A DNA stretch of 38,448 bases from a virus. Lineage: Duplodnaviria; Caudoviricetes. Under the pieces are notes generated by a model. It was given only the letters and a program-made list of their open reading frames with translations. It was not told the origin of the DNA and did no database searches. Numbering within the stretch: position 1 is the first letter of the stretch; the number at the start of each line of letters is the position of its first letter. The translations under genes were made by a program, and so were the position numbers. The stretch is taken from the IMG/VR virus record IMGVR_UViG_3300037313_000254, positions 1 to 38,448 of that record. The stretch is one strand, 5' to 3'. Of the stretch, positions 1 through 38,448 are shown one piece after another.

Positions 1-335
1 CCTGAAGTTTCGTAAACGCCGCCCGCGATCGTCACGGCAGTGTTAGCGGATGCAAGCGCCTGCAAAGTCATTCCCGCTTCAAGTTGCAGGCCGATCGCCT
101 GAGGCGGTACATACGTTTGGCCGGCCGAAAGAGAGAAGGCCGACATGATCGTGTTGGAGGCACCAGCTGATCCTGCTGACGGAACCCGGTAGAGCGTCAC
201 CGTCACTGGACTTCCCGACGTGTTCGTGAATGACAGGTTATTAACCGTCGAAGTCGTACCCGTTGGCGCTGTGTAATAGGTCGCCGCAGAGGTGGTCAGT
301 TGAGCCGCTATGATGGCTTTCGGGATGCGCTGCAT
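1..335 (-). CDS. Small Thr/Ser-rich beta-sandwich virion protein (113 aa when completed across the junction; stop TGA at 38311-38309)
   Basis: Missing from the ORF track because it runs off the end. ATG at 335 directly after the upstream stop. Reads MQRIPKAIIAAQLTTSAATYYTAPTGTTSTVNNLSFTN...LEAGMTLQALASANTAVTIAGGVYETSG(S*). Confidence 0.85.
   Translation of the reverse strand, partial: MQRIPKAIIAAQLTTSAATYYTAPTGTTSTVNNLSFTNTSGSPVTVTLYRVPSAGSAGASNTIMSAFSLSAGQTYVPPQAIGLQLEAGMTLQALASANTAVTIAGGVYETS
13..133 (+). repeat. Terminal overlap, copy 1 (121 bp, identical to 38328-38448)
   Basis: Base-by-base match TAAACGCCGCCC...GGCCGAAAGAG. Positions 1-12 do not match 38316-38327. Confidence 0.97.
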
Positions 336-2784: not shown

Positions 2785-2829
2785 TTCACCTCCGGCTAAC
2801 ATAGAAATCACGATAAGCCGGAAGTAAAA
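2785..2829 (-). promoter_or_regulatory. RBS-sequestering hairpin of the HNH gene; the 5' arm is late motif copy 3 (2814-2828)
   Basis: Minus-strand UUUUACUUCCGGCU pairs with AGCCGGAGGUGAAA (14 bp, two G-U) and covers the SD up to the AUG. Confidence 0.75.
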
Positions 2830-3604: not shown

Positions 3605-4024
3605 TTAATGATTCGTCCAGTTGAACGTTCCGTTGCTGTTCGTGCACATCACCTGCACAGCCAGCGTGCCACCACCCGTCGCCGTTGCCGCATACACAGG
3701 GCTTGCAGCGCCATCCGTCTCTACTGCGATGAGGCCGGAACTCGACGCATTGCACGTCGGAAGCGTGGCATTCGTGAACTTCGCGGGCTGCATCTGGACC
3801 GAGTCCGAACGCTGCGTGCTCATTGACGTGGCGCAATACGGCAACGTCGAACCGACCGAGACGCCCGAGCCGTTGTAATACGTCGTGCCTTGCAGGAAAA
3901 ACGATCCGCACTGGTTGGTGATGGTCTGGAAGCCGTTGCTCGGGTTGAACTGCGCCTGAGCGGGCGAAATCAGCGCTGCGAACATGCCAACGCTGGCAAT
4001 GACTGCGAGAAGAACCTTTTTCAC
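3605..4024 (-). CDS. Signal-peptide-bearing, Cys-containing head spike/fibre-like protein (139 aa)
   Basis: GTG at 4024 overlaps the upstream TGA and has a CAGGAG SD. MKKVLLAVIASVGMFAALISPAQA|Q is a typical Sec/SPI signal. C-terminus LPTCNASSSGLIAVETDG...V.V.C..NG..NW. Confidence 0.7.
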   Translation of the reverse strand: MKKVLLAVIASVGMFAALISPAQAQFNPSNGFQTITNQCGSFFLQGTTYYNGSGVSVGSTLPYCATSMSTQRSDSVQMQPAKFTNATLPTCNASSSGLIAVETDGAASPVYAATATGGGTLAVQVMCTNSNGTFNWTNH

Positions 4025-4290
4025 GATTTGCACTCCTGTTCGGAAATCATCTGTTTGAGTTTCTCGACGCCTGTCTTGTGATGCGGATTCAGTCCGAGAG
4101 CTTTCGCCTGATCCATCAACGCGTCCCGCAGTTGATCGACGCTCTGTGAGTCGGCCGATTCCTGGCCGATTGCTGCGTCTTCCTCTTCCCGGCTGTTGAC
4201 CACCAGACCGGAACCGTCTGCCAGCGTGACCCACTTCGGGTACTCCACGAAGACATACGGAGCGGTGAAATTGCGCATGTTCGGGTACAT
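4021..4290 (-). CDS. Hypothetical head-module protein (EYPKWV motif, short helical C-terminal domain)
   Basis: GGGAG SD, follows the coat terminator, translationally coupled to the next gene. Confidence 0.75.
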   Translation of the reverse strand: MYPNMRNFTAPYVFVEYPKWVTLADGSGLVVNSREEEDAAIGQESADSQSVDQLRDALMDQAKALGLNPHHKTGVEKLKQMISEQECKS

Positions 4291-4301
4291 CGAAAACTCC
4301 C

Positions 4302-4328
4302 AAAAAGGAGCCGGGAATCTCCCGGCCC
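4302..4328 (-). terminator. Rho-independent terminator after the coat gene
   Basis: GGGCCGGGA-GAT-TCCCGGCTC followed by CTTTTT on the minus strand. Confidence 0.8.
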
Positions 4329-4352
4329 AAGCACCACCCGGAGGAGACCCGG

Positions 4353-5558
4353 TTAGAGAACGTCAGCGACTGCAACGGCCCATTCCGGACGAATGGCCGC
4401 GAAGCCATACAGCACGTCCAGACGGGTGATCAGGTTGTCGCTCATCACGTCATACGCGGTGATCATCCGCATTGCGCAGCCGTCGAACTCCGCGCGCGCA
4501 GCCTCCACCACGCCACTCGTCGGCATTTCCATGTCGGCGGTCGCGAGCGTGAAGGCTTCGGGGTAGAACGCGAGGTTCTGGCGGTACTTCGTGCTTGCGG
4601 GGAGAACCAGCGCGATCGCTGCGCCGTTGGCGGGCGATGCTGTGACCGTGTTGAATGCGGCCGGCGCCGGAACGATTGCCGGGTAAATCGGGATCGACGT
4701 CGCACCGTTGGCGACGTTTGCCGTCACCACGAACTGACGCAACTGGCCCTGATCCTGACCCGTCAGGCGGTTGATACCGTTCACGCCAGCGATGGTGATG
4801 ATGTCGCCCGCGTTGAACGTGCCGGTGATGGCGTTGACCGTCAGCGTGTTGCCCGTCTGGTTCGCGCCGTTGACCGTACCACCCGCCGAGAACGTACCGT
4901 TCGTGTGGATCTGCACCGTCTGATCGCGATACCAGTCGAAGCCGAGCGTATCGGTCGTGATCATGCCCGTCTCGTACTGATCCGCGATCTTGCGTTGCGG
5001 ATTGAACAGACCGGCCAGCGACGTGACCGTGCGCGCTTCGGTCAACAGGTCGAGGATGATCGTGCGGTCCATGCCCGGCGCAAGGTTGAAGCCGAGCTTC
5101 GCGCCCGCATCCAGCCACGTACCAGCGTCCGGCGAGATCAGGTTGCCGCCGCCGTCCTGCTTGAATGACAGATTCGACGCAGCATTCGACACGCTGATCA
5201 GGTCGCCGGCCATCGATGCGGCCAGACGGTTGATCGCAGGAGCGAGAATGCGCTCGCTGTAGTCGTCGAGCGACATCGTCTTTTCAGCCGTGCCGAAGGC
5301 GACAGGAACGTTCTTCTGCGTCGCGACGGTCAGCGTCGTGTTCTGCTCGTTCGTGCCCTGCGGCGTGATAGCCGGTCCGTTACCGACGATGTAATCGTTC
5401 GGCAGACGGATACGCAGCGTGTTACCAATCTTCGCGCCGGTGCGTGCGAATTGGTCGTCGTACTGGCGATTGACGCGGCGAAGGAAGGCGTTGGTCTGCG
5501 AGAACAGACGCACCGCCTCGTTGGTGATCTGATTGATCGTCAGCAATGAATTTGCAAT
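4353..5558 (-). CDS. Major capsid protein (P22 coat family), probable ATT start
   Basis: (M)ANSLLTINQITNEAVRLF...QYDDQFARTGAKIGNTLRIRLP N-terminus and RLDVLYGFAAIRPEWAV C-terminus. SD GAGGA lies 7 nt before ATT at 5558. Confidence 0.92.
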   Translation of the reverse strand: MANSLLTINQITNEAVRLFSQTNAFLRRVNRQYDDQFARTGAKIGNTLRIRLPNDYIVGNGPAITPQGTNEQNTTLTVATQKNVPVAFGTAEKTMSLDDYSERILAPAINRLAASMAGDLISVSNAASNLSFKQDGGGNLISPDAGTWLDAGAKLGFNLAPGMDRTIILDLLTEARTVTSLAGLFNPQRKIADQYETGMITTDTLGFDWYRDQTVQIHTNGTFSAGGTVNGANQTGNTLTVNAITGTFNAGDIITIAGVNGINRLTGQDQGQLRQFVVTANVANGATSIPIYPAIVPAPAAFNTVTASPANGAAIALVLPASTKYRQNLAFYPEAFTLATADMEMPTSGVVEAARAEFDGCAMRMITAYDVMSDNLITRLDVLYGFAAIRPEWAVAVADVL

Positions 5559-5762
5559 TTTGGGTTCCTCTCTGAGGTTAAGTGTCAGAAAAATCAACAC
5601 GCTTGCCGGGTACACAAGCGGGCCTAAGCCCTTAACCCCGAAACCCTCGCTAGCTGGCGATACAGATCAGATTGACGGCTCTGAATGGCCTATGGTCACG
5701 AAGGAAGCGCTTAAATTGCCCCTTTCGGTGAGCCAAAGGGTAAGCCGGAAGTAAATTCCGGC
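5559..5762 (-). ncRNA. Candidate structured cis-regulatory leader of the coat gene (four-way junction 5562-5646 plus upstream hairpins)
   Basis: Helices read by eye: GGGUUUC/GGAACCC, GGGGUUAA/UUAACCUC, GGGC/GCCC, GCUUG/CAAGC, GUGUUG/UGACAC. Also UCGC/GCGA, CCCUUU/AAAGGG and GCCGGAA/UUCCGGC. Confidence 0.65.
5741..5755 (-). promoter_or_regulatory. Late regulatory motif copy 2 (TTTACTTCCGGCTTA)
   Basis: Identical to 2814-2828 and one mismatch from 12017-12031. All three copies are intergenic and in the same orientation. Confidence 0.7.
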
Positions 5763-5777
5763 CACCTATTTCTGAGA

Positions 5778-6497
5778 TCAACGGCGACGCGCGTTCTTGT
5801 TACGCCACGCCAGCCACTTCTTGGTATCGCTCGGATCAGGCTCGGTGCTGTCTTCAGCGCCACTCCGCCCGTCGAGCGCATCGATCGGCGGCGGCGCCTT
5901 GCTGATCTGCTTGCTTAGAGACTTTGCGGCTTTCGGCGCGAGCTTCATCATTTCAATGGCCATCTGCGTCGGTTCGAGTGAAGCGATACGCATGGCCTCG
6001 TTGATGTTCTCGCTCTTGCCGAGGTACGTAACCAGCTTCTCTGCGCCATCAATTGAGGTGAGAACTTTCAGGAAGTCGAGTCCACCGATCCCAGCCATGT
6101 TCAGATTCTGCGTGGCCTTGTCGAAATCCTCGCCGAATTCCTTGGCACCCGCCTCGTTGATGGCCGTGATGCGCTGGTTCAGCGTGCTCTGCGCGGTCTC
6201 TTCGGCAACCATGCGCTTTGCGTATGCCTTCGCCAGCTCTTCCACGGACTGATTGGATTGCGGCGCTTGTTGCGGCTGCTGGCCTTCCGTCGGTTGCGGC
6301 TGTTGGCGTGCTCGCGCGAGTTCGGCCTCGAGTTCAGCGACACGCGCTTCTGCCGCGCGGCGGGCTGCGGTGATCTCACTGATGCGCTTCGGCACCCATG
6401 AGGTATCAGGCCGCTGCTCGGTCTGCTGCTGTTCTACCTGCTCCGTTTCGGTCTGTTGTTCGACCTGTTGCTGCTGTTCTGCCTGCACGTCGCTCAT
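5778..6497 (-). CDS. Capsid scaffolding protein
   Basis: Between portal and coat. Q/E-rich coiled coil (KRISEITAARRAAE), SKAPPPI motif, basic C-terminal helix W.AWRNK..RRR. Confidence 0.85.
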   Translation of the reverse strand: MSDVQAEQQQQVEQQTETEQVEQQQTEQRPDTSWVPKRISEITAARRAAEARVAELEAELARARQQPQPTEGQQPQQAPQSNQSVEELAKAYAKRMVAEETAQSTLNQRITAINEAGAKEFGEDFDKATQNLNMAGIGGLDFLKVLTSIDGAEKLVTYLGKSENINEAMRIASLEPTQMAIEMMKLAPKAAKSLSKQISKAPPPIDALDGRSGAEDSTEPDPSDTKKWLAWRNKNARRR

Positions 6498-8668
6498 TGT
6501 TGCTCTCCGGTGGTTTGTGTTTCTACGGGTGCCAGTACGTTCTGAATGCCTGCGGCGTATAGGTTCGCCGGGTCTGCGTTATCAGGCTGGATTCCGGCGT
6601 CGGGATTGGGTGCGCGCAGGATTTCGGCCAGCGCCTTGCGGATGATCGGCTCCAGCGCCCCTTCTCCCATTGCTGGAACGATTGCCTTTAACCGGTCTGT
6701 CTCCGCCTTGAACGCATCGAGAATTGACCTGTTGTCATTTTCCATGCGAAGCGCGAGATGGTTCAGTGCATCCATGTCGACTCGCTTCTCCTGAAGCTGA
6801 TGCTCTATCGTCTTGTCGGCAAGCTGTTGTTGCAGATGCTGGATCAGGCCAGCAGCAGCCTTGAGTTGCTGATCCATCTGCTGGACCTGCGGATCAACCT
6901 CACCAAGCACCGCCGGATTCGTCGCCTTGATCCAGTTGCGCACGCGCTCCATGAGCTTGTCGGCAGCCGGGAAGTCGGCTGTGCCCATATACAGATCGCC
7001 GATGACGTTCGAAAGCTGCGGCTGCGCTGCCAAGAGTTGTGTCATTGCGTCGAATGCCTTCTCGCGGCGAGTGTCGAAGTTCGGGCCGCATTTGGCGATG
7101 ACATCGTACTTGCCCACTGCCGGATTGAAGATAGACGATGCTTGCGCTTCCCCCGCATCCGATTGCTGGTCAAGCGGCTTCTTTGATTCCGGATCGATCT
7201 GGATCTGATGTTCTTCCCCATCCTCGGCGCGGATGCGCAGCACGCGTTTCGTATCGTAGATCTTCGGGATCAGGTCAACCAACTGAACGCCAGTGAACCG
7301 GATCGCGTCAGCCATCCCATCCTGGAAGTGGAACGTAACCCGGCTGCCCTGCTTCTGGCGCTGCTCAATTGCTACACCACTGACTTCATTGCCCTGCTCG
7401 CTGAATGTAGCCTCGTACTGGCCCGAGGCCATCATCAGCTCATGCTCGGCAGCTTGCATGCCTTCCATGAAAACCGGAGCGCTCGATGGCGGCTGCTGTC
7501 GCGTTGGCTGAGGGATAGGATTCCCGTTCTCGTCCGCGTGGTTATAGGGCAGGTACGAATGATTCTGCGTATTCGCTGTCGCCCAGTAGTTCTCCAGCCC
7601 TTCGATGGCTTCGACAGGTGCTGTGTAAGGAGACTTCGACTGCAGCGCACCATATTCCAGCGCGGCTGACGCGTTGTAATTGAACGCGCGTTGAGCATCT
7701 TTCAGATAACGGACGAGGCCCTTGCGATCAAGCCGGTTCTCAATAACGACTTCCTCGCCAACCGCGCGGATGATCGGTATGTACTTTCCAGCCCATGTTG
7801 ATTGATCCTTGATCTCATCTCCGACGATCAGATACCACTGCACGCCGAACTTCGGCACGCGGCGACGCTGCGCTTTTCCCTCCTCCATCGCCCTGCCGAA
7901 CAGGTCGCGGTTCTCCGCAGGCAGATCCGACTCGCGAACAAGCGTGATCGATCCATCGTCACCCTCGATCGCATACAACCATTCCTTCGATTCCTCGCGC
8001 TCATAATATTCGGCCACGCGGATCGAATCCTTACGTGTCCAGGCTAGCTCGCCTTCGCCCATGACTGCTTTGCCGGCCAGTTTCCCGTATTTCTTCTCGG
8101 CCTGATCACGCGGCATATCATCAAAGATGAATGCAAACCGCGCATCCGATCCGTCTTTCTTTTTGATATGCGGGTCCATGTAGACCGACAACGGGTCATT
8201 CACAGGCCGGATGAAGATTTCCTGATCAAAACTGTCGTCGTCGACATAATCAGTGACGATGCGCCAGTAGCCGATGCCCCCACCAACCTGAAATTCCATC
8301 GCCTTCGAATAAGCTGCCTGAGCGTCCGAGATGTATTCGATGCGCCGGATGATCTGTTCGAAGACCTGTGCACTCTCGTATGTTGCCTCATCGCCGGTCG
8401 CGCTGATCTGGACTGATGGCTTGTTCTCCTTGCCCTCATTGACAACGTGCAGCCAGTGCGTGTGGGTCTTGTTGATCGTCACCATCGGCTGGCCGGCGAG
8501 TTGGCGCTGTGCTCGCACTGCAGCATTCCACTGGTCGCCATTATCGGGGTCAGCATACAAAAACCGAATGTCGTCCTTAAAACGACTCCGGGCATCAGAC
8601 TCCCACTCAACAGCAGCCGCGAATCGGTCGTGCGCCCTTTTGATAACGTCTTTTTTGCGCTCAGCCAT
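6494..8668 (-). CDS. Portal protein (P22 gp1-like)
   Basis: 724 aa. GDQW...TINK, GGIGYWRI..DY, W.GKYIPII, GLVR.LKDAQR..NY and SGVAI..RQ motifs. Confidence 0.93.
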   Translation of the reverse strand: MAERKKDVIKRAHDRFAAAVEWESDARSRFKDDIRFLYADPDNGDQWNAAVRAQRQLAGQPMVTINKTHTHWLHVVNEGKENKPSVQISATGDEATYESAQVFEQIIRRIEYISDAQAAYSKAMEFQVGGGIGYWRIVTDYVDDDSFDQEIFIRPVNDPLSVYMDPHIKKKDGSDARFAFIFDDMPRDQAEKKYGKLAGKAVMGEGELAWTRKDSIRVAEYYEREESKEWLYAIEGDDGSITLVRESDLPAENRDLFGRAMEEGKAQRRRVPKFGVQWYLIVGDEIKDQSTWAGKYIPIIRAVGEEVVIENRLDRKGLVRYLKDAQRAFNYNASAALEYGALQSKSPYTAPVEAIEGLENYWATANTQNHSYLPYNHADENGNPIPQPTRQQPPSSAPVFMEGMQAAEHELMMASGQYEATFSEQGNEVSGVAIEQRQKQGSRVTFHFQDGMADAIRFTGVQLVDLIPKIYDTKRVLRIRAEDGEEHQIQIDPESKKPLDQQSDAGEAQASSIFNPAVGKYDVIAKCGPNFDTRREKAFDAMTQLLAAQPQLSNVIGDLYMGTADFPAADKLMERVRNWIKATNPAVLGEVDPQVQQMDQQLKAAAGLIQHLQQQLADKTIEHQLQEKRVDMDALNHLALRMENDNRSILDAFKAETDRLKAIVPAMGEGALEPIIRKALAEILRAPNPDAGIQPDNADPANLYAAGIQNVLAPVETQTTGEQQ

Positions 8669-11135: not shown

Positions 11136-11580
11136 TGCTGAACCCGTAGGTGAAGGAGACGCGGATTGAGCCGGCCGTGAGTGCAACGCTGTTTGCAACC
11201 TGGATCGTGTCGCCCGGCTGGGAGCATGCAAAGAAGGCGCCCGGCGCATTGGTCTGGCGGATCACCGTTGGTTGAGCAGGCGTAGCAGGCGTGTTCGGAA
11301 TGTACGAGCGAAGCAGAGCGACCGTTTCACCGCCGTTCACCGTCGTCAGCGTCGTGTTGATCATGCCGGCCGCGCCGATCGTTGCAATCGGATCGATCGT
11401 GATCTGGATGCCGATGATGAATCCGTATTTGCCAGCAGGAACAGTCAGGACGGTCTGAGGCGTCGTGCCTGATCCCGAGTTGAGCGTCACAGCTGCGTAT
11501 TTGCTCGCGATGAACTGCGAGACGAGCTGGCGAGGATTGCCTTGTGGGTCAACGAACTGGACAGAGATGCCTTGGCTCAT
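11116..11580 (-). CDS. Beta-sandwich, probably virion decoration protein (154 aa)
   Basis: T/V/G-rich, TVLTVPAGK...PGDTIQV pattern resembling the 1-335 protein. ATGA-coupled. Confidence 0.65.
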   Translation of the reverse strand: MSQGISVQFVDPQGNPRQLVSQFIASKYAAVTLNSGSGTTPQTVLTVPAGKYGFIIGIQITIDPIATIGAAGMINTTLTTVNGGETVALLRSYIPNTPATPAQPTVIRQTNAPGAFFACSQPGDTIQVANSVALTAGSIRVSFTYGFSNVAIGN

Positions 11581-11792
11581 TTCTTTTTCCCCTTCCCGAG
11601 GATGCGATCGGCCTTGGCGTCGATCTTGGCCTTGGACGACGACGACAACTTGCCCTTGTGCTCCATCTCGCTAGCACGGGCTTTTGCGTTCCGTGCGTGG
11701 CTTTTGTCGGGCATTGGATAAGCGCGCTTCCCCGGTTCGCCGAATTCCGACTTCGGCAAGGACTTGCGCGCCTTCGTCGTGAGCTTGCTCAC
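11577..11792 (-). CDS. Small basic protein, DUF6582-like
   Basis: GTG at 11792. LTTKARKSLPKSEFG.P..RAYPMPD.SHARNA.AR motif. Confidence 0.7.
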   Translation of the reverse strand: MSKLTTKARKSLPKSEFGEPGKRAYPMPDKSHARNAKARASEMEHKGKLSSSSKAKIDAKADRILGKGKKK

Positions 11793-11965
11793 TTGCTCGT
11801 CCCGCGAATCTTCATAACGGGAACGCCGTTGAGCTTGTACGGAACAGGCTTGGGACCTGCCGGCGGCATGCCACCGTGATAGGTGCCAGCAGGAGCCGTG
11901 CGCGCGCCGTGTGCGCAACCAGCCGCTTTCTTCATGTCCGCGCCGTCTTTGAGTCCACCAGCCAT
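11789..11965 (-). CDS. Hypothetical basic protein (58 aa), probable first late gene
   Basis: GGAG SD before ATG at 11965; coupled to the next gene. Confidence 0.65.
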   Translation of the reverse strand: MAGGLKDGADMKKAAGCAHGARTAPAGTYHGGMPPAGPKPVPYKLNGVPVMKIRGTSK

Positions 11966-12016: not shown

Positions 12017-12031
12017 TAAGCCGGTAGTAAA
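12017..12031 (-). promoter_or_regulatory. Late regulatory motif copy 1 (TTTACTACCGGCTTA) at the head of the late operon
   Basis: 14/15 identical to the copies at 5741 and 2814. Followed by hairpin CCGCC-ATCG-GGCGG and a T-run. Confidence 0.65.
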
Positions 12032-31871: not shown

Positions 31872-31891
31872 GCAGCGCGCCGGCGCGCTGC
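31872..31891. repeat. Perfect 20-bp palindrome GCAGCGCGCCGGCGCGCTGC
   Basis: Read directly; intergenic, upstream of the tailspike. Confidence 0.8.
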
Positions 31892-31951
31892 CTGTCTCTG
31901 CCCTCGAGAGACTCTTTAACGGGCGACTACCGCCGATAGGTTGGCTAGACC

Positions 31952-32137
31952 ATGACAACAGCACAACTCATTCACACCGCCTGCGTTTCGGCTGGCGTTT
32001 CAATCATCGCCATATGGCGCGACCTATCTGCTGCCAGAAAGAAGCGCCGGCAGACTCCCGGCTACGACTGGAGCGCCGAGACGGGATATCGCATTGCCTA
32101 TCGGCTGGGAAAACTGTGGGCGCGACGTCAGAAGTGA
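31952..32137 (+). CDS. Possible antisense small membrane protein (61 aa) in the P22 sieA position
   Basis: Hydrophobic N-terminus followed by RKKRR. Possible promoter TTTAAC-16 bp-TAGGTT just upstream. Overlaps the ejection gene by 114 nt. Confidence 0.35.
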   Translation: MTTAQLIHTACVSAGVSIIAIWRDLSAARKKRRQTPGYDWSAETGYRIAYRLGKLWARRQK

Positions 32138-38312: not shown

Positions 38313-38327
38313 GAGCCACTTGTCTCA

Positions 38328-38448
38328 TAAACGCCGCCCGCGATCGTCACGGCAGTGTTAGCGGATGCAAGCGCCTGCAAAGTCATTCCCGCTTCAAGTT
38401 GCAGGCCGATCGCCTGAGGCGGTACATACGTTTGGCCGGCCGAAAGAG
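38328..38448 (+). repeat. Terminal overlap, copy 2 (circularisation overlap)
   Basis: Identical to 13-133. Confidence 0.97.

What the first reader, a model, noticed from the sequence alone, without database searches (positions are those of the whole stretch)
5547..5571. Major capsid protein appears to start at a non-canonical AUU codon
Seen: GAGGA-ACCCAAA-ATT GCA AAT TCA TTG CTG ACG. ATT sits at optimal SD spacing, exactly where Met is expected in the M-A-N-S-L-L-T start typical of this coat family. The nearest in-frame alternatives fit poorly: GTG at 5615 lies inside the RNA junction and adds 19 unlikely residues, and TTG at 5546 is 19 nt from the SD. Known: AUU initiation is rare and IF3-sensitive (infC, pcnB). 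Inference: a weak start on the most abundant virion protein implies deliberate translational control, perhaps tied to the leader RNA. It could instead be a G>T mutation or a sequencing error.
Basis: partly seen in the sequence, partly recalled or inferred. Interest (0 to 1): 0.75.

Follow-up and report, generated by a model that had tools for sequence, protein, structure and literature searches.

The report
Phage virion genes with private starts
This phage's capsid gene has AUU where the start codon belongs, behind a folded RNA leader that likely keeps capsid synthesis low until late infection; in several relatives most virion genes have AGG there instead and the phage carries its own matching tRNA, likely a private start code.

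Summary
ATT (5558-5556, minus strand) sits 7 nt behind AGAGAGGA, at the homologues' Met. It is not a sequencing error. A second phage with a 78%-identical coat from another clade has the same leader type and ATT, and there a stop codon blocks the upstream GTG. A third variant appears to have ATC.

Upstream lies a diverged form of a covarying double-pseudoknot leader whose usual form folds over the ribosome site; the scan found this RNA before on other DNA (e1-5352945). AUU is likely a second brake on leaky capsid synthesis.

The larger result lies in relatives, not in this window. Five related phages start 30 of 43 anchored late genes with AGG (0 of 57 in four others; 0 of 6 early genes). All five encode a CCU-anticodon tRNA with initiator marks: 1-72 mismatch, G2-C71, C3-G70, A73, no A20. 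Internal AGG still aligns to Arg. An unrelated phage repeats the pairing at its capsid gene. This likely is natural start-codon recoding; ten literature searches found no report. The novelty label rests on it; the window's AUU alone is a new variant of a known kind. Nothing was bench-tested.

The parts
5556..5558 (-). ATT, predicted start codon of the coat gene
   Evidence: same codon in L160; apparently ATC in run X12
4353..5558 (-). P22-family major capsid (coat) gene, 401 aa
   Evidence: PF11651 E 2.4e-34
5566..5573 (-). Shine-Dalgarno AGAGAGGA; core 4 bp, up to 8 bp if the mature 16S keeps the UUUCU seen at the gene end of a Paraburkholderia genome
   Evidence: mature 16S end and true host unknown
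5559..5565 (-). 7-nt spacer ACCCAAA, identical in L160
5667..5690 (-). Leader pseudoknot 1: GGC 5690-5688 with GCC 5679-5677; stem A TCAGA 5684-5680 with TCTGA 5671-5667
   Evidence: family covariation; window parse; compensatory stem in L160
5647..5660 (-). Inserted hairpin TCGC-CAGCTA-GCGA, shared with ATG-start leaders L051, L125, L128
5600..5640 (-). Predicted pseudoknot 2 in flipped form: CGGG 5640-5637 with loop CCCG 5610-5607 of stem B (5620-5615 with 5605-5600); the usual family form is GCCC/GGGC
   Evidence: only window and L160, so no covariation within this type
5562..5646 (-). Predicted alternative helices: GGGTTTC 5646-5640 with GGAACCC 5568-5562, and GGGGTTAAG 5639-5631 with CTTAACCTC 5582-5574; they hide part of the SD
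   Evidence: (z -3.5); similar pairing in L160
5778..6497 (-). Scaffolding protein gene upstream of the leader, ATG start
   Evidence: phrog_8865
31883..31955 (-). Second, usual-type copy of the leader RNA before a 613-aa likely tail gene (31843-30002, ATG start, weak SD)
   Evidence: this copy was in the training alignment
5741..5755 (-). TTTACTTCCGGCTTA motif, three copies in the window; possible late-promoter element
   Evidence: 3 found, 0.03 expected; function inferred

Best explanation
The coat gene has AUU at its start position and likely initiates there with the host initiator tRNA, helped by a strong, well-spaced SD, at a rate that IF3 would keep low; this likely acts as a second brake, on top of a structured leader RNA, against making capsid protein before late infection. 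Shown: the codon, the SD, the lack of any shared canonical alternative, AUU in two phages with this leader type and apparently AUC in a third, covariation of the leader family, and no tRNA gene in this genome. Predicted: the usual leader folds into a rod over the SD, while this leader type hides the SD only in part. Inferred: that AUU/AUC makes up for that weaker lock, and that a late phage factor or high late mRNA lifts output to capsid levels. Relatives appear to gate the same step more strictly: AGG starts on most virion genes, likely readable only by a phage-encoded CCU initiator tRNA placed at the head of the late operon.
For: ATT aligns with Met1 of homologues. L160 has the same leader type (114 of 137 columns identical) and ATT, with a coat 78% identical and 76 of 140 four-fold sites identical. 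The two coats are not one clade (AU test p 1e-30), so leader and codon moved together and persisted. In L160 an in-frame stop lies 10 codons upstream, with no ATG/GTG/TTG/CTG between. Run X12 holds a third variant with 5556 A>G, i.e. ATC, 139 nt from the contig end, depth 7.45, with synonymous changes in codons 3, 5 and 6 that also remove the TTG. Leader family: 90.3% of cells paired against 78.9 in shuffles; 13 of 17 pairs with two-sided changes. Free fold: the SD pairs with stem B at P 0.58 or more in 67 of 73 parsed leaders; window and L160 have the least hidden SDs (0.52 and 0.70 unpaired, median 0.0). Conserved AUU/AUA starts with extended SDs gave about 10% of AUG output in S. aureus (PMC13009471, passages); infC (AUU) still yields about 5,500 molecules per cell (PMC5499595, section 23).
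Against: No ribosome-profiling, peptide or reporter data. Only three examples of this leader type, of shared ancestry. ATT/ATC is a transition and can be drift among tolerated codons. For X12 only 31 of the contig's 38 differences were listed, so the first two bases of the codon are inferred unchanged. In the fold with pseudoknots held, the window's SD became less open (0.52 to 0.10; L160 0.70 to 0.46), so an ON state is not shown for this type. Eight ATG-start leaders have free-versus-held energy gaps as small as the window's (12 kcal/mol or less), so a weak lock does not require a weak codon. The RNA model of the usual leader does not detect the window's coat leader or L160's. 20 of 93 leaders could not be parsed. 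A weak start on the most abundant virion protein remains odd, and no activator is identified.
Confidence: 0.65

Rival explanations
1. AUU is the true start but is merely tolerated: a strong SD and abundant late mRNA give enough coat protein, and the codon drifts (ATG to ATT/ATC) with no regulatory role.
For: The family start varies freely: ATG 71, GTG 13, TTG 4 of 95 contexts, with several changes on the tree. Three examples of one ancestry.
Against: None of the three variants has returned to ATG or holds GTG/TTG, across 17% leader divergence and two coat clades; one substitution would restore ATG.
Confidence: 0.24
2. Translation starts at the upstream GTG (5615) or at TTG (5546).
For: Both are canonical and in frame in the window.
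Against: GTG 5615 lies in stem B with no SD, and in L160 a stop blocks that frame. TTG is CTG in L160 and TTA in X12. N3, L5, L6, T7 and I8 are invariant in 83 of 83 close homologues.
Confidence: 0.03
3. Sequencing error, or a recent G>T change in a defective phage.
For: The deepest support comes from the run that may be the source; the X2 contig has depth 2 and ends near the codon.
Against: Identical ATT in X2 (another study) and in L160; apparently ATC in X12.
Confidence: 0.02
4. The pseudoknotted leader places the ribosome without an initiator tRNA (as dicistrovirus intergenic IRESs do, recalled), so the first codon is free.
For: Two pseudoknots before a capsid gene and an unusually variable first codon.
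Against: An SD at normal spacing is kept throughout. By eye the stem-B loop does not track the start codon (the same loop occurs with ATG, GTG and TTG). AGG is explained by a tRNA and also occurs on genes with no leader.
Confidence: 0.03
5. AUU/AUC is read by a dedicated initiator tRNA with a GAU-type anticodon supplied in trans, like the AGG system of relatives.
For: AUU and AUC share a GAU anticodon; relatives use a private initiator codon.
Against: No tRNA gene in the window or in G006; the window's two ends overlap by 30 nt, so little can be missing. Only the coat gene has ATT (the one other ATT call, G006 g154, has an ATG four codons upstream).
Confidence: 0.03

Closest known systems
AUU starts of E. 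coli infC and pcnB; S. aureus cvfC1 (AUU) and ccpN (AUA)
   Same: Near-cognate start with a strong SD; AUU or AUC interchangeable as in infC; IF3-limited (PMC5499595 section 23; PMC13009471 passages and reference title for pcnB).
   Different: Here on a phage major capsid gene behind a structured leader; IF3 dependence untested.
Translational riboswitch-type leaders with pseudoknot and anti-SD (kind recalled); the late-gene leader of earlier finding e1-5352945
   Same: Covarying pseudoknots and an alternative rod that hides the SD.
   Different: No Rfam family at gathering score in the window or 10 homologous loci; only chance-level hits at E up to 5. No ligand known; the window's coat copy is a diverged type.
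Engineered initiator tRNA(CCU) / AGG pair in E. coli
   Same: The same codon-anticodon pair; it gave the highest output of 12 pairs across strains (bioRxiv 10.64898/2026.04.16.719103, passages).
   Different: Laboratory construct. In the relatives found here it appears to be natural, phage-encoded and confined to late genes.
AGG-to-Met reassignment in uncultivated Bacilli (Shulgina and Eddy 2021, PMC8629427, passages)
   Same: tRNA(CCU) with A73, G2-C71, C3-G70 and no A20, read as Met-charged.
   Different: There a host sense-codon change. Here internal AGG aligns to Arg in 11 of 16 and Met in 0 of 16, the tRNA has a 1-72 mismatch, and it is phage-borne.
Phage stop-codon recoding with phage suppressor tRNAs, proposed to time lytic genes (recalled; paper not held)
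   Same: A phage-specific code and tRNA gating late genes.
   Different: Acts at termination; the AGG system would act at initiation.
P22 scaffolding-protein translational autoregulation (bioRxiv 10.1101/2022.12.13.520362, one passage)
   Same: Translational control in a P22-type head operon.
   Different: Controls scaffold, not coat; no such leader or start codon is mentioned in the passage seen.

Membership tests
P22-like coat protein (PF11651) | Profile match over the full length | tested here: met
   residues 2-394, 119.3 bits against cut-off 24
IF3-limited AUU/AUC start (infC, pcnB type) | AUU/AUC at the homologous start with SD at normal spacing and no canonical alternative | tested here: met
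IF3-limited AUU/AUC start (infC, pcnB type) | Conservation of the non-canonical codon | tested here: inconclusive
   3 of 3 variants of this leader type (ATT, ATT, apparent ATC), shared ancestry
IF3-limited AUU/AUC start (infC, pcnB type) | Initiation at the codon, and repression by IF3 | not testable with these tools
   needs profiling or reporters
Translational RNA switch | Structure supported by covariation | tested here: met
   on 44 usual-type leaders; the window's coat copy was not in that alignment
Translational RNA switch | Mutually exclusive fold that hides the SD | tested here: inconclusive
   predicted for the usual type (67 of 73); for the window's type the SD is half hidden and no open state was obtained
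Translational RNA switch | A ligand or protein that flips it | not testable with these tools
   none identified
Catalogued Rfam family | Match at gathering score | tested here: not met
Bacterial initiator tRNA (relatives' tRNA-CCU; not in the window) | 1-72 mismatch with G2-C71, C3-G70, A73 | tested here: met
   9 of 9 (C.A 6, G.A 2, A.A 1); features as in PMC5389676 and PMC9976931 passages
Bacterial initiator tRNA (relatives' tRNA-CCU; not in the window) | Three G-C pairs 29-41, 30-40, 31-39 | tested here: not met
   G30-C40 in 9 of 9, G29-C41 in 3 of 9, position 31-39 is C-G in 9 of 9. The middle pair is the essential one in E. coli, but a cg/GC/cg mutant worked poorly
Bacterial initiator tRNA (relatives' tRNA-CCU; not in the window) | Purine 11 : pyrimidine 24 | tested here: not met
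   pyrimidine at 11 in 9 of 9 (feature named)
Bacterial initiator tRNA (relatives' tRNA-CCU; not in the window) | CAU anticodon | tested here: not met
   CCU; so it works like, but is not, tRNAfMet
Bacterial initiator tRNA (relatives' tRNA-CCU; not in the window) | Charged with Met, formylated, used at the P site | not testable with these tools
   E. coli MetRS can mismethionylate tRNA-Arg(CCU) (PMC9976931 passage)
Ordinary tRNA-Arg(CCU) | A20 and paired 1-72 | tested here: not met
   of 26 viral CCU tRNAs, 20 have both features and 6 have neither
AGG-to-Met sense reassignment | Internal AGG at Met columns | tested here: not met
   0 of 16 at Met, 11 of 16 at Arg

The most novel reading that the evidence does not exclude
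Temperate phages have evolved a private start code. A phage-encoded initiator tRNA with a CCU anticodon, placed at the head of the late operon, unlocks translation of virion genes that begin with AGG, while internal AGG stays Arg and early genes keep AUG. It occurs in at least two unrelated phage families. The window's AUU-plus-leader is the tRNA-free way of guarding the same step.
Probability: 0.8. Interest if true: 0.93.

Novelty: categorically new. Interest (0 to 1): 0.85.

Why it matters
The label 'categorically new' applies to the AGG/tRNA system in relatives; the window's AUU start alone is a new variant of a known kind (interest about 0.55). If the AGG reading is right, it is a natural genome with a second initiator tRNA and its own start codon, until now seen by me only as an engineered device. 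It would give a switch for the timing of virion synthesis that can be tested in cultured lysogens (two Pigmentiphaga isolate genomes carry it), plus naturally evolved orthogonal initiation parts. It also shows a blind spot of gene callers: 10 of the best 120 coat homologues are called from codon 10 (some of these have GTG or TTG starts), the Pigmentiphaga coat is called one codon early, and the tRNA is labelled Arg. The AUU capsid start offers a test of whether IF3-sensitive codons can drive a highly abundant protein.

Tried and rejected
tRNA in the window: none by ARAGORN or Rfam; relaxed thresholds gave only noise. Sigma-70 promoter at 4000-7000: none. More leaders of the window's type: a pattern scan of viral contigs found only L160's contig; no match among GenBank phages. 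First idea for AGG, that its middle G strengthens the repressing helix (P about 0.99 in L074 and L188): may contribute, but set aside as the cause because AGG also starts genes without a leader. C33 as an initiator mark: rejected, ordinary phage CCU tRNAs have it too. Ten of 15 hits were tRNA 3' fragments, not tRNA genes. The homology-free AGG scan was too noisy and one search was swamped by antisense frames; counts come from the anchored table. One search found nothing because the pattern was mis-specified. The pseudoknot-1 parser failed and was replaced. Runs X3-X6 and X10 gave no contig over the codon. A third leader copy before the lysis genes was not found in this window. Activator candidates: the 71-aa basic protein (11792-11580) only resembles DUF6582 clusters and is found in 6 of 10 genomes; the 58-aa protein is in 10 of 10; neither was tested. 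An exact look-up of two coat proteins found nothing. Hecht et al. 2017 and the stop-recoding paper were not held. Only the main text of Weinberg et al. 2017 was searched (no capsid, coat, head protein or GP20 passage); its supplements and other candidate-RNA catalogues were not read and could list this leader.

Full report
Setting. The window is a 38.4-kb temperate P22-like phage record. It has integrase, terminase, portal, scaffold, coat, tail and lysis genes. Its two ends share a 30-nt overlap, so it is close to complete. The nearest named coat relatives are prophages of Cupriavidus, Paraburkholderia, Pigmentiphaga and Achromobacter (77-85%), so a Burkholderiales host is inferred.

Observation. 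ATT at 5558-5556 follows AGAGAGGA by 7 nt and opens a 401-aa coat frame. Contigs of the possible source run (depth 12.1) and of another study (depth 2, codon 12-14 letters from the end) show no difference.

Census. I searched 447 sequences (446 loci plus the window; the window's duplicate L095 was dropped); 446 matched and 7 lacked the N-terminus. Those at least 75% identical over the first 90 residues gave 95 distinct contexts: ATG 71, GTG 13, TTG 4, AGG 5 (one a codon upstream of the anchor) and ATT 2. The second ATT is L160. Its leader matches the window's at 114 of 137 columns, with compensatory changes in stem A, while its coat is 78% identical. The two coats fall in different clades (AU test p 1e-30), so leader, SD and ATT appear to have moved as one cassette, with the junction near the start codon. 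In L160 a stop 10 codons upstream removes the GTG option and codon 5 is CTG; it has an ATG at codon 10, where the window has CAG. An RNA-library contig (X12, depth 7.45) holds a third variant of this leader with 5556 A>G, i.e. ATC, and synonymous changes just downstream. Only 31 of its 38 differences were listed, so the codon's first two bases are inferred; the contig says nothing about expression.

Leader RNA. Close relatives carry about 75 nt with two H-type pseudoknots, each pseudoknot pairing followed by GUNAA. On 44 sequences, 90.3% of cells pair (shuffles 78.9, slid controls 27.5-46.6) and 13 of 17 pairs change on both sides. There is no Rfam match. In nested folding of 73 of 93 distinct leaders, the SD pairs with the 5' strand of stem B at P 0.58 or more in 67; holding the pseudoknots opened the SD in 33 and closed it in 8. 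The window's coat leader is a diverged type. Pseudoknot 1 is intact; it has an inserted hairpin shared with three ATG-start leaders and a flipped pseudoknot 2 (CGGG/CCCG). A model of the usual type does not find it. Its SD is the second least hidden of the 73 (0.52 unpaired; L160 0.70), and it is among the 8 where holding the pseudoknots closes the SD further, so a working switch is not shown for this type. A usual-type copy precedes the tail gene. I had seen the pseudoknots and anti-SD before reading it (notes); it prompted the search for a second copy.

Mechanism in the window. Most likely host fMet-tRNA reads AUU, aided by the SD, under IF3 discrimination, as for infC (PMC5499595, abstract and section 23) and S. 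aureus cvfC1 (PMC13009471, passages). No tRNA gene is present and the coat is the only late gene with ATT. I infer a second brake that offsets a weaker RNA lock (0.65). Tolerated drift is the main rival (0.24); eight ATG leaders with equally small energy gaps speak for it.

What the control revealed. Using the adaptor gene as a control, AGG appeared in the same four contexts as the AGG coats. I fetched those genomes. G002, G003, G004 and G005 each encode a tRNA with a CCU anticodon near the head of the late operon (for G002 and G003). A pattern scan added G012, G010 and G011. Anchored on window proteins, 30 of 43 late-gene starts are AGG in G002, G003, G004, G005 and G012, against 0 of 57 in the window, G001, G006 and G008, which lack the tRNA. 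Early genes are 0 of 6, a small sample (rule-based calls, rows without an N-terminal match left out). Portal, coat and adaptor are AGG in all five. G010 has the tRNA but only 1 AGG of 13. G011 and G414 are fragments with no clear AGG start. G007 has AGG starts but is a 5.8-kb fragment that was not tested for the tRNA. Internal AGG codons align to Arg in 11 of 16 and Met in 0 of 16. All nine tRNAs have a 1-72 mismatch, G2-C71, C3-G70, A73 and G30-C40 and lack A20. None has the full three G-C pairs or a purine at 11, so they are imperfect initiators. Among 26 viral CCU tRNAs, 20 have paired 1-72 with A20 and 6 have the mismatch without it. The pattern occurs in 2 of 401 genomes of the host family, the two AGG-prophage carriers. 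G413, a 54-kb phage with unrelated capsid and portal families, has such a tRNA. Its capsid gene reads AGG-ASTAFQ behind AAGGAG where homologues of 86-89% identity read M-ASTAFQ; its portal likely starts with AGG too. The engineered CCU/AGG pair was the best of 12 in E. coli. Whether the two AGG coat groups arose independently is not settled: the trees need two changes but do not force them. Rivals for this system are an Arg-supplementing tRNA (against: no A20, 1-72 mismatch, internal AGG rare) and host fMet-tRNA misreading AGG (against: IF3 represses AGG starts in E. coli, PMC6868393 passages, and the starts occur only with the tRNA).

Literature. Ten searches (listings and abstract starts) showed no report of a natural AGG start code, of a phage initiator tRNA with a changed anticodon, of this leader, or of an AUU capsid start. 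The library lacks most subscription journals and no supplements were read. Papers seen as passages: PMC9976931, PMC5389676, PMC6868393, PMC13009471, PMC8629427, and the two bioRxiv preprints. PMC5737381 was searched for four terms with no hit. Stop-codon recoding in phages and IRES-type initiation are recalled. Earlier-finding look-ups for the AGG system found nothing relevant.

Verdict. The window's AUU start is real and probably regulatory. The overall score of 0.85 rests on the AGG/initiator-tRNA system in relatives, which is strong on comparative evidence and untested at the bench.

Noticed in passing
L449:16721-16795(-), L451:6923-6997(-), L452:676-752(+), L461:918-993(-), L478:1280-1354(+): Phage tRNA(CCU) with initiator marks in genomes whose late genes mostly start with AGG. 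The main lead; not in the window.
   Followed up: yes
L485:9970-10046(+) and L514:629-631(+) (G413): An unrelated 54-kb phage with the same kind of tRNA and an AGG capsid start; portal (L485 about 14479) and terminase may also start with AGG.
   Followed up: partly
L467:2876-2950(+), L480 about 1619 (G010): tRNA(CCU) present but only one late gene starts with AGG: a possible gain or loss stage.
   Followed up: partly
L495:6018-6090(-) (G414): CCU tRNA with A1.A72 mismatch among replication genes of an AT-rich phage fragment; no clear AGG starts in 10 kb.
   Followed up: partly
P0005, P0014, P0118; P0156, P0202, P0222, P0231, P0234: Capsid proteins called short or from an internal codon, two of them from Burkholderia multivorans contigs; candidates for further non-standard starts.
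   Followed up: no
window 2814-2828, 5741-5755, 12017-12031 (-): TTTACTWCCGGCTTA three times, before the HNH/stabilisation genes, the coat leader and the first late gene (0.03 expected); one copy in G001. Possible late-promoter element.
   Followed up: partly
window 11792-11965 and 11580-11792 (-): Two small proteins at the head of the late operon (58 aa in 10 of 10 genomes; basic 71 aa, DUF6582-like, in 6 of 10): candidate activators of the leader.
   Followed up: partly
window 31883-31955 (-): Second leader copy before the likely tail gene, with ATG but a weak SD: the reverse of the coat arrangement.
   Followed up: partly
window 31952 onward (+); G003, G004, G006, G008: A short antisense ORF next to the tail gene start, with ATG or GTG at the same place in four relatives.
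   Followed up: no
window 13-40 and about 38325-38355: A 30-nt overlap between the record's ends beside an HNH gene; three HNH genes in the late region. HNH-like genes also sit just before the leader in L160, L125 and L130.
   Followed up: no
L483-L509: Many ordinary phage tRNA-Arg(CCU) genes found by this pattern have C at position 33 instead of U.
   Followed up: no
L018, L074, L188 upstream of the leader: Sigma-70-like TTGACA elements directly before the coat leader in several relatives, seen by eye; none in the window.
   Followed up: no
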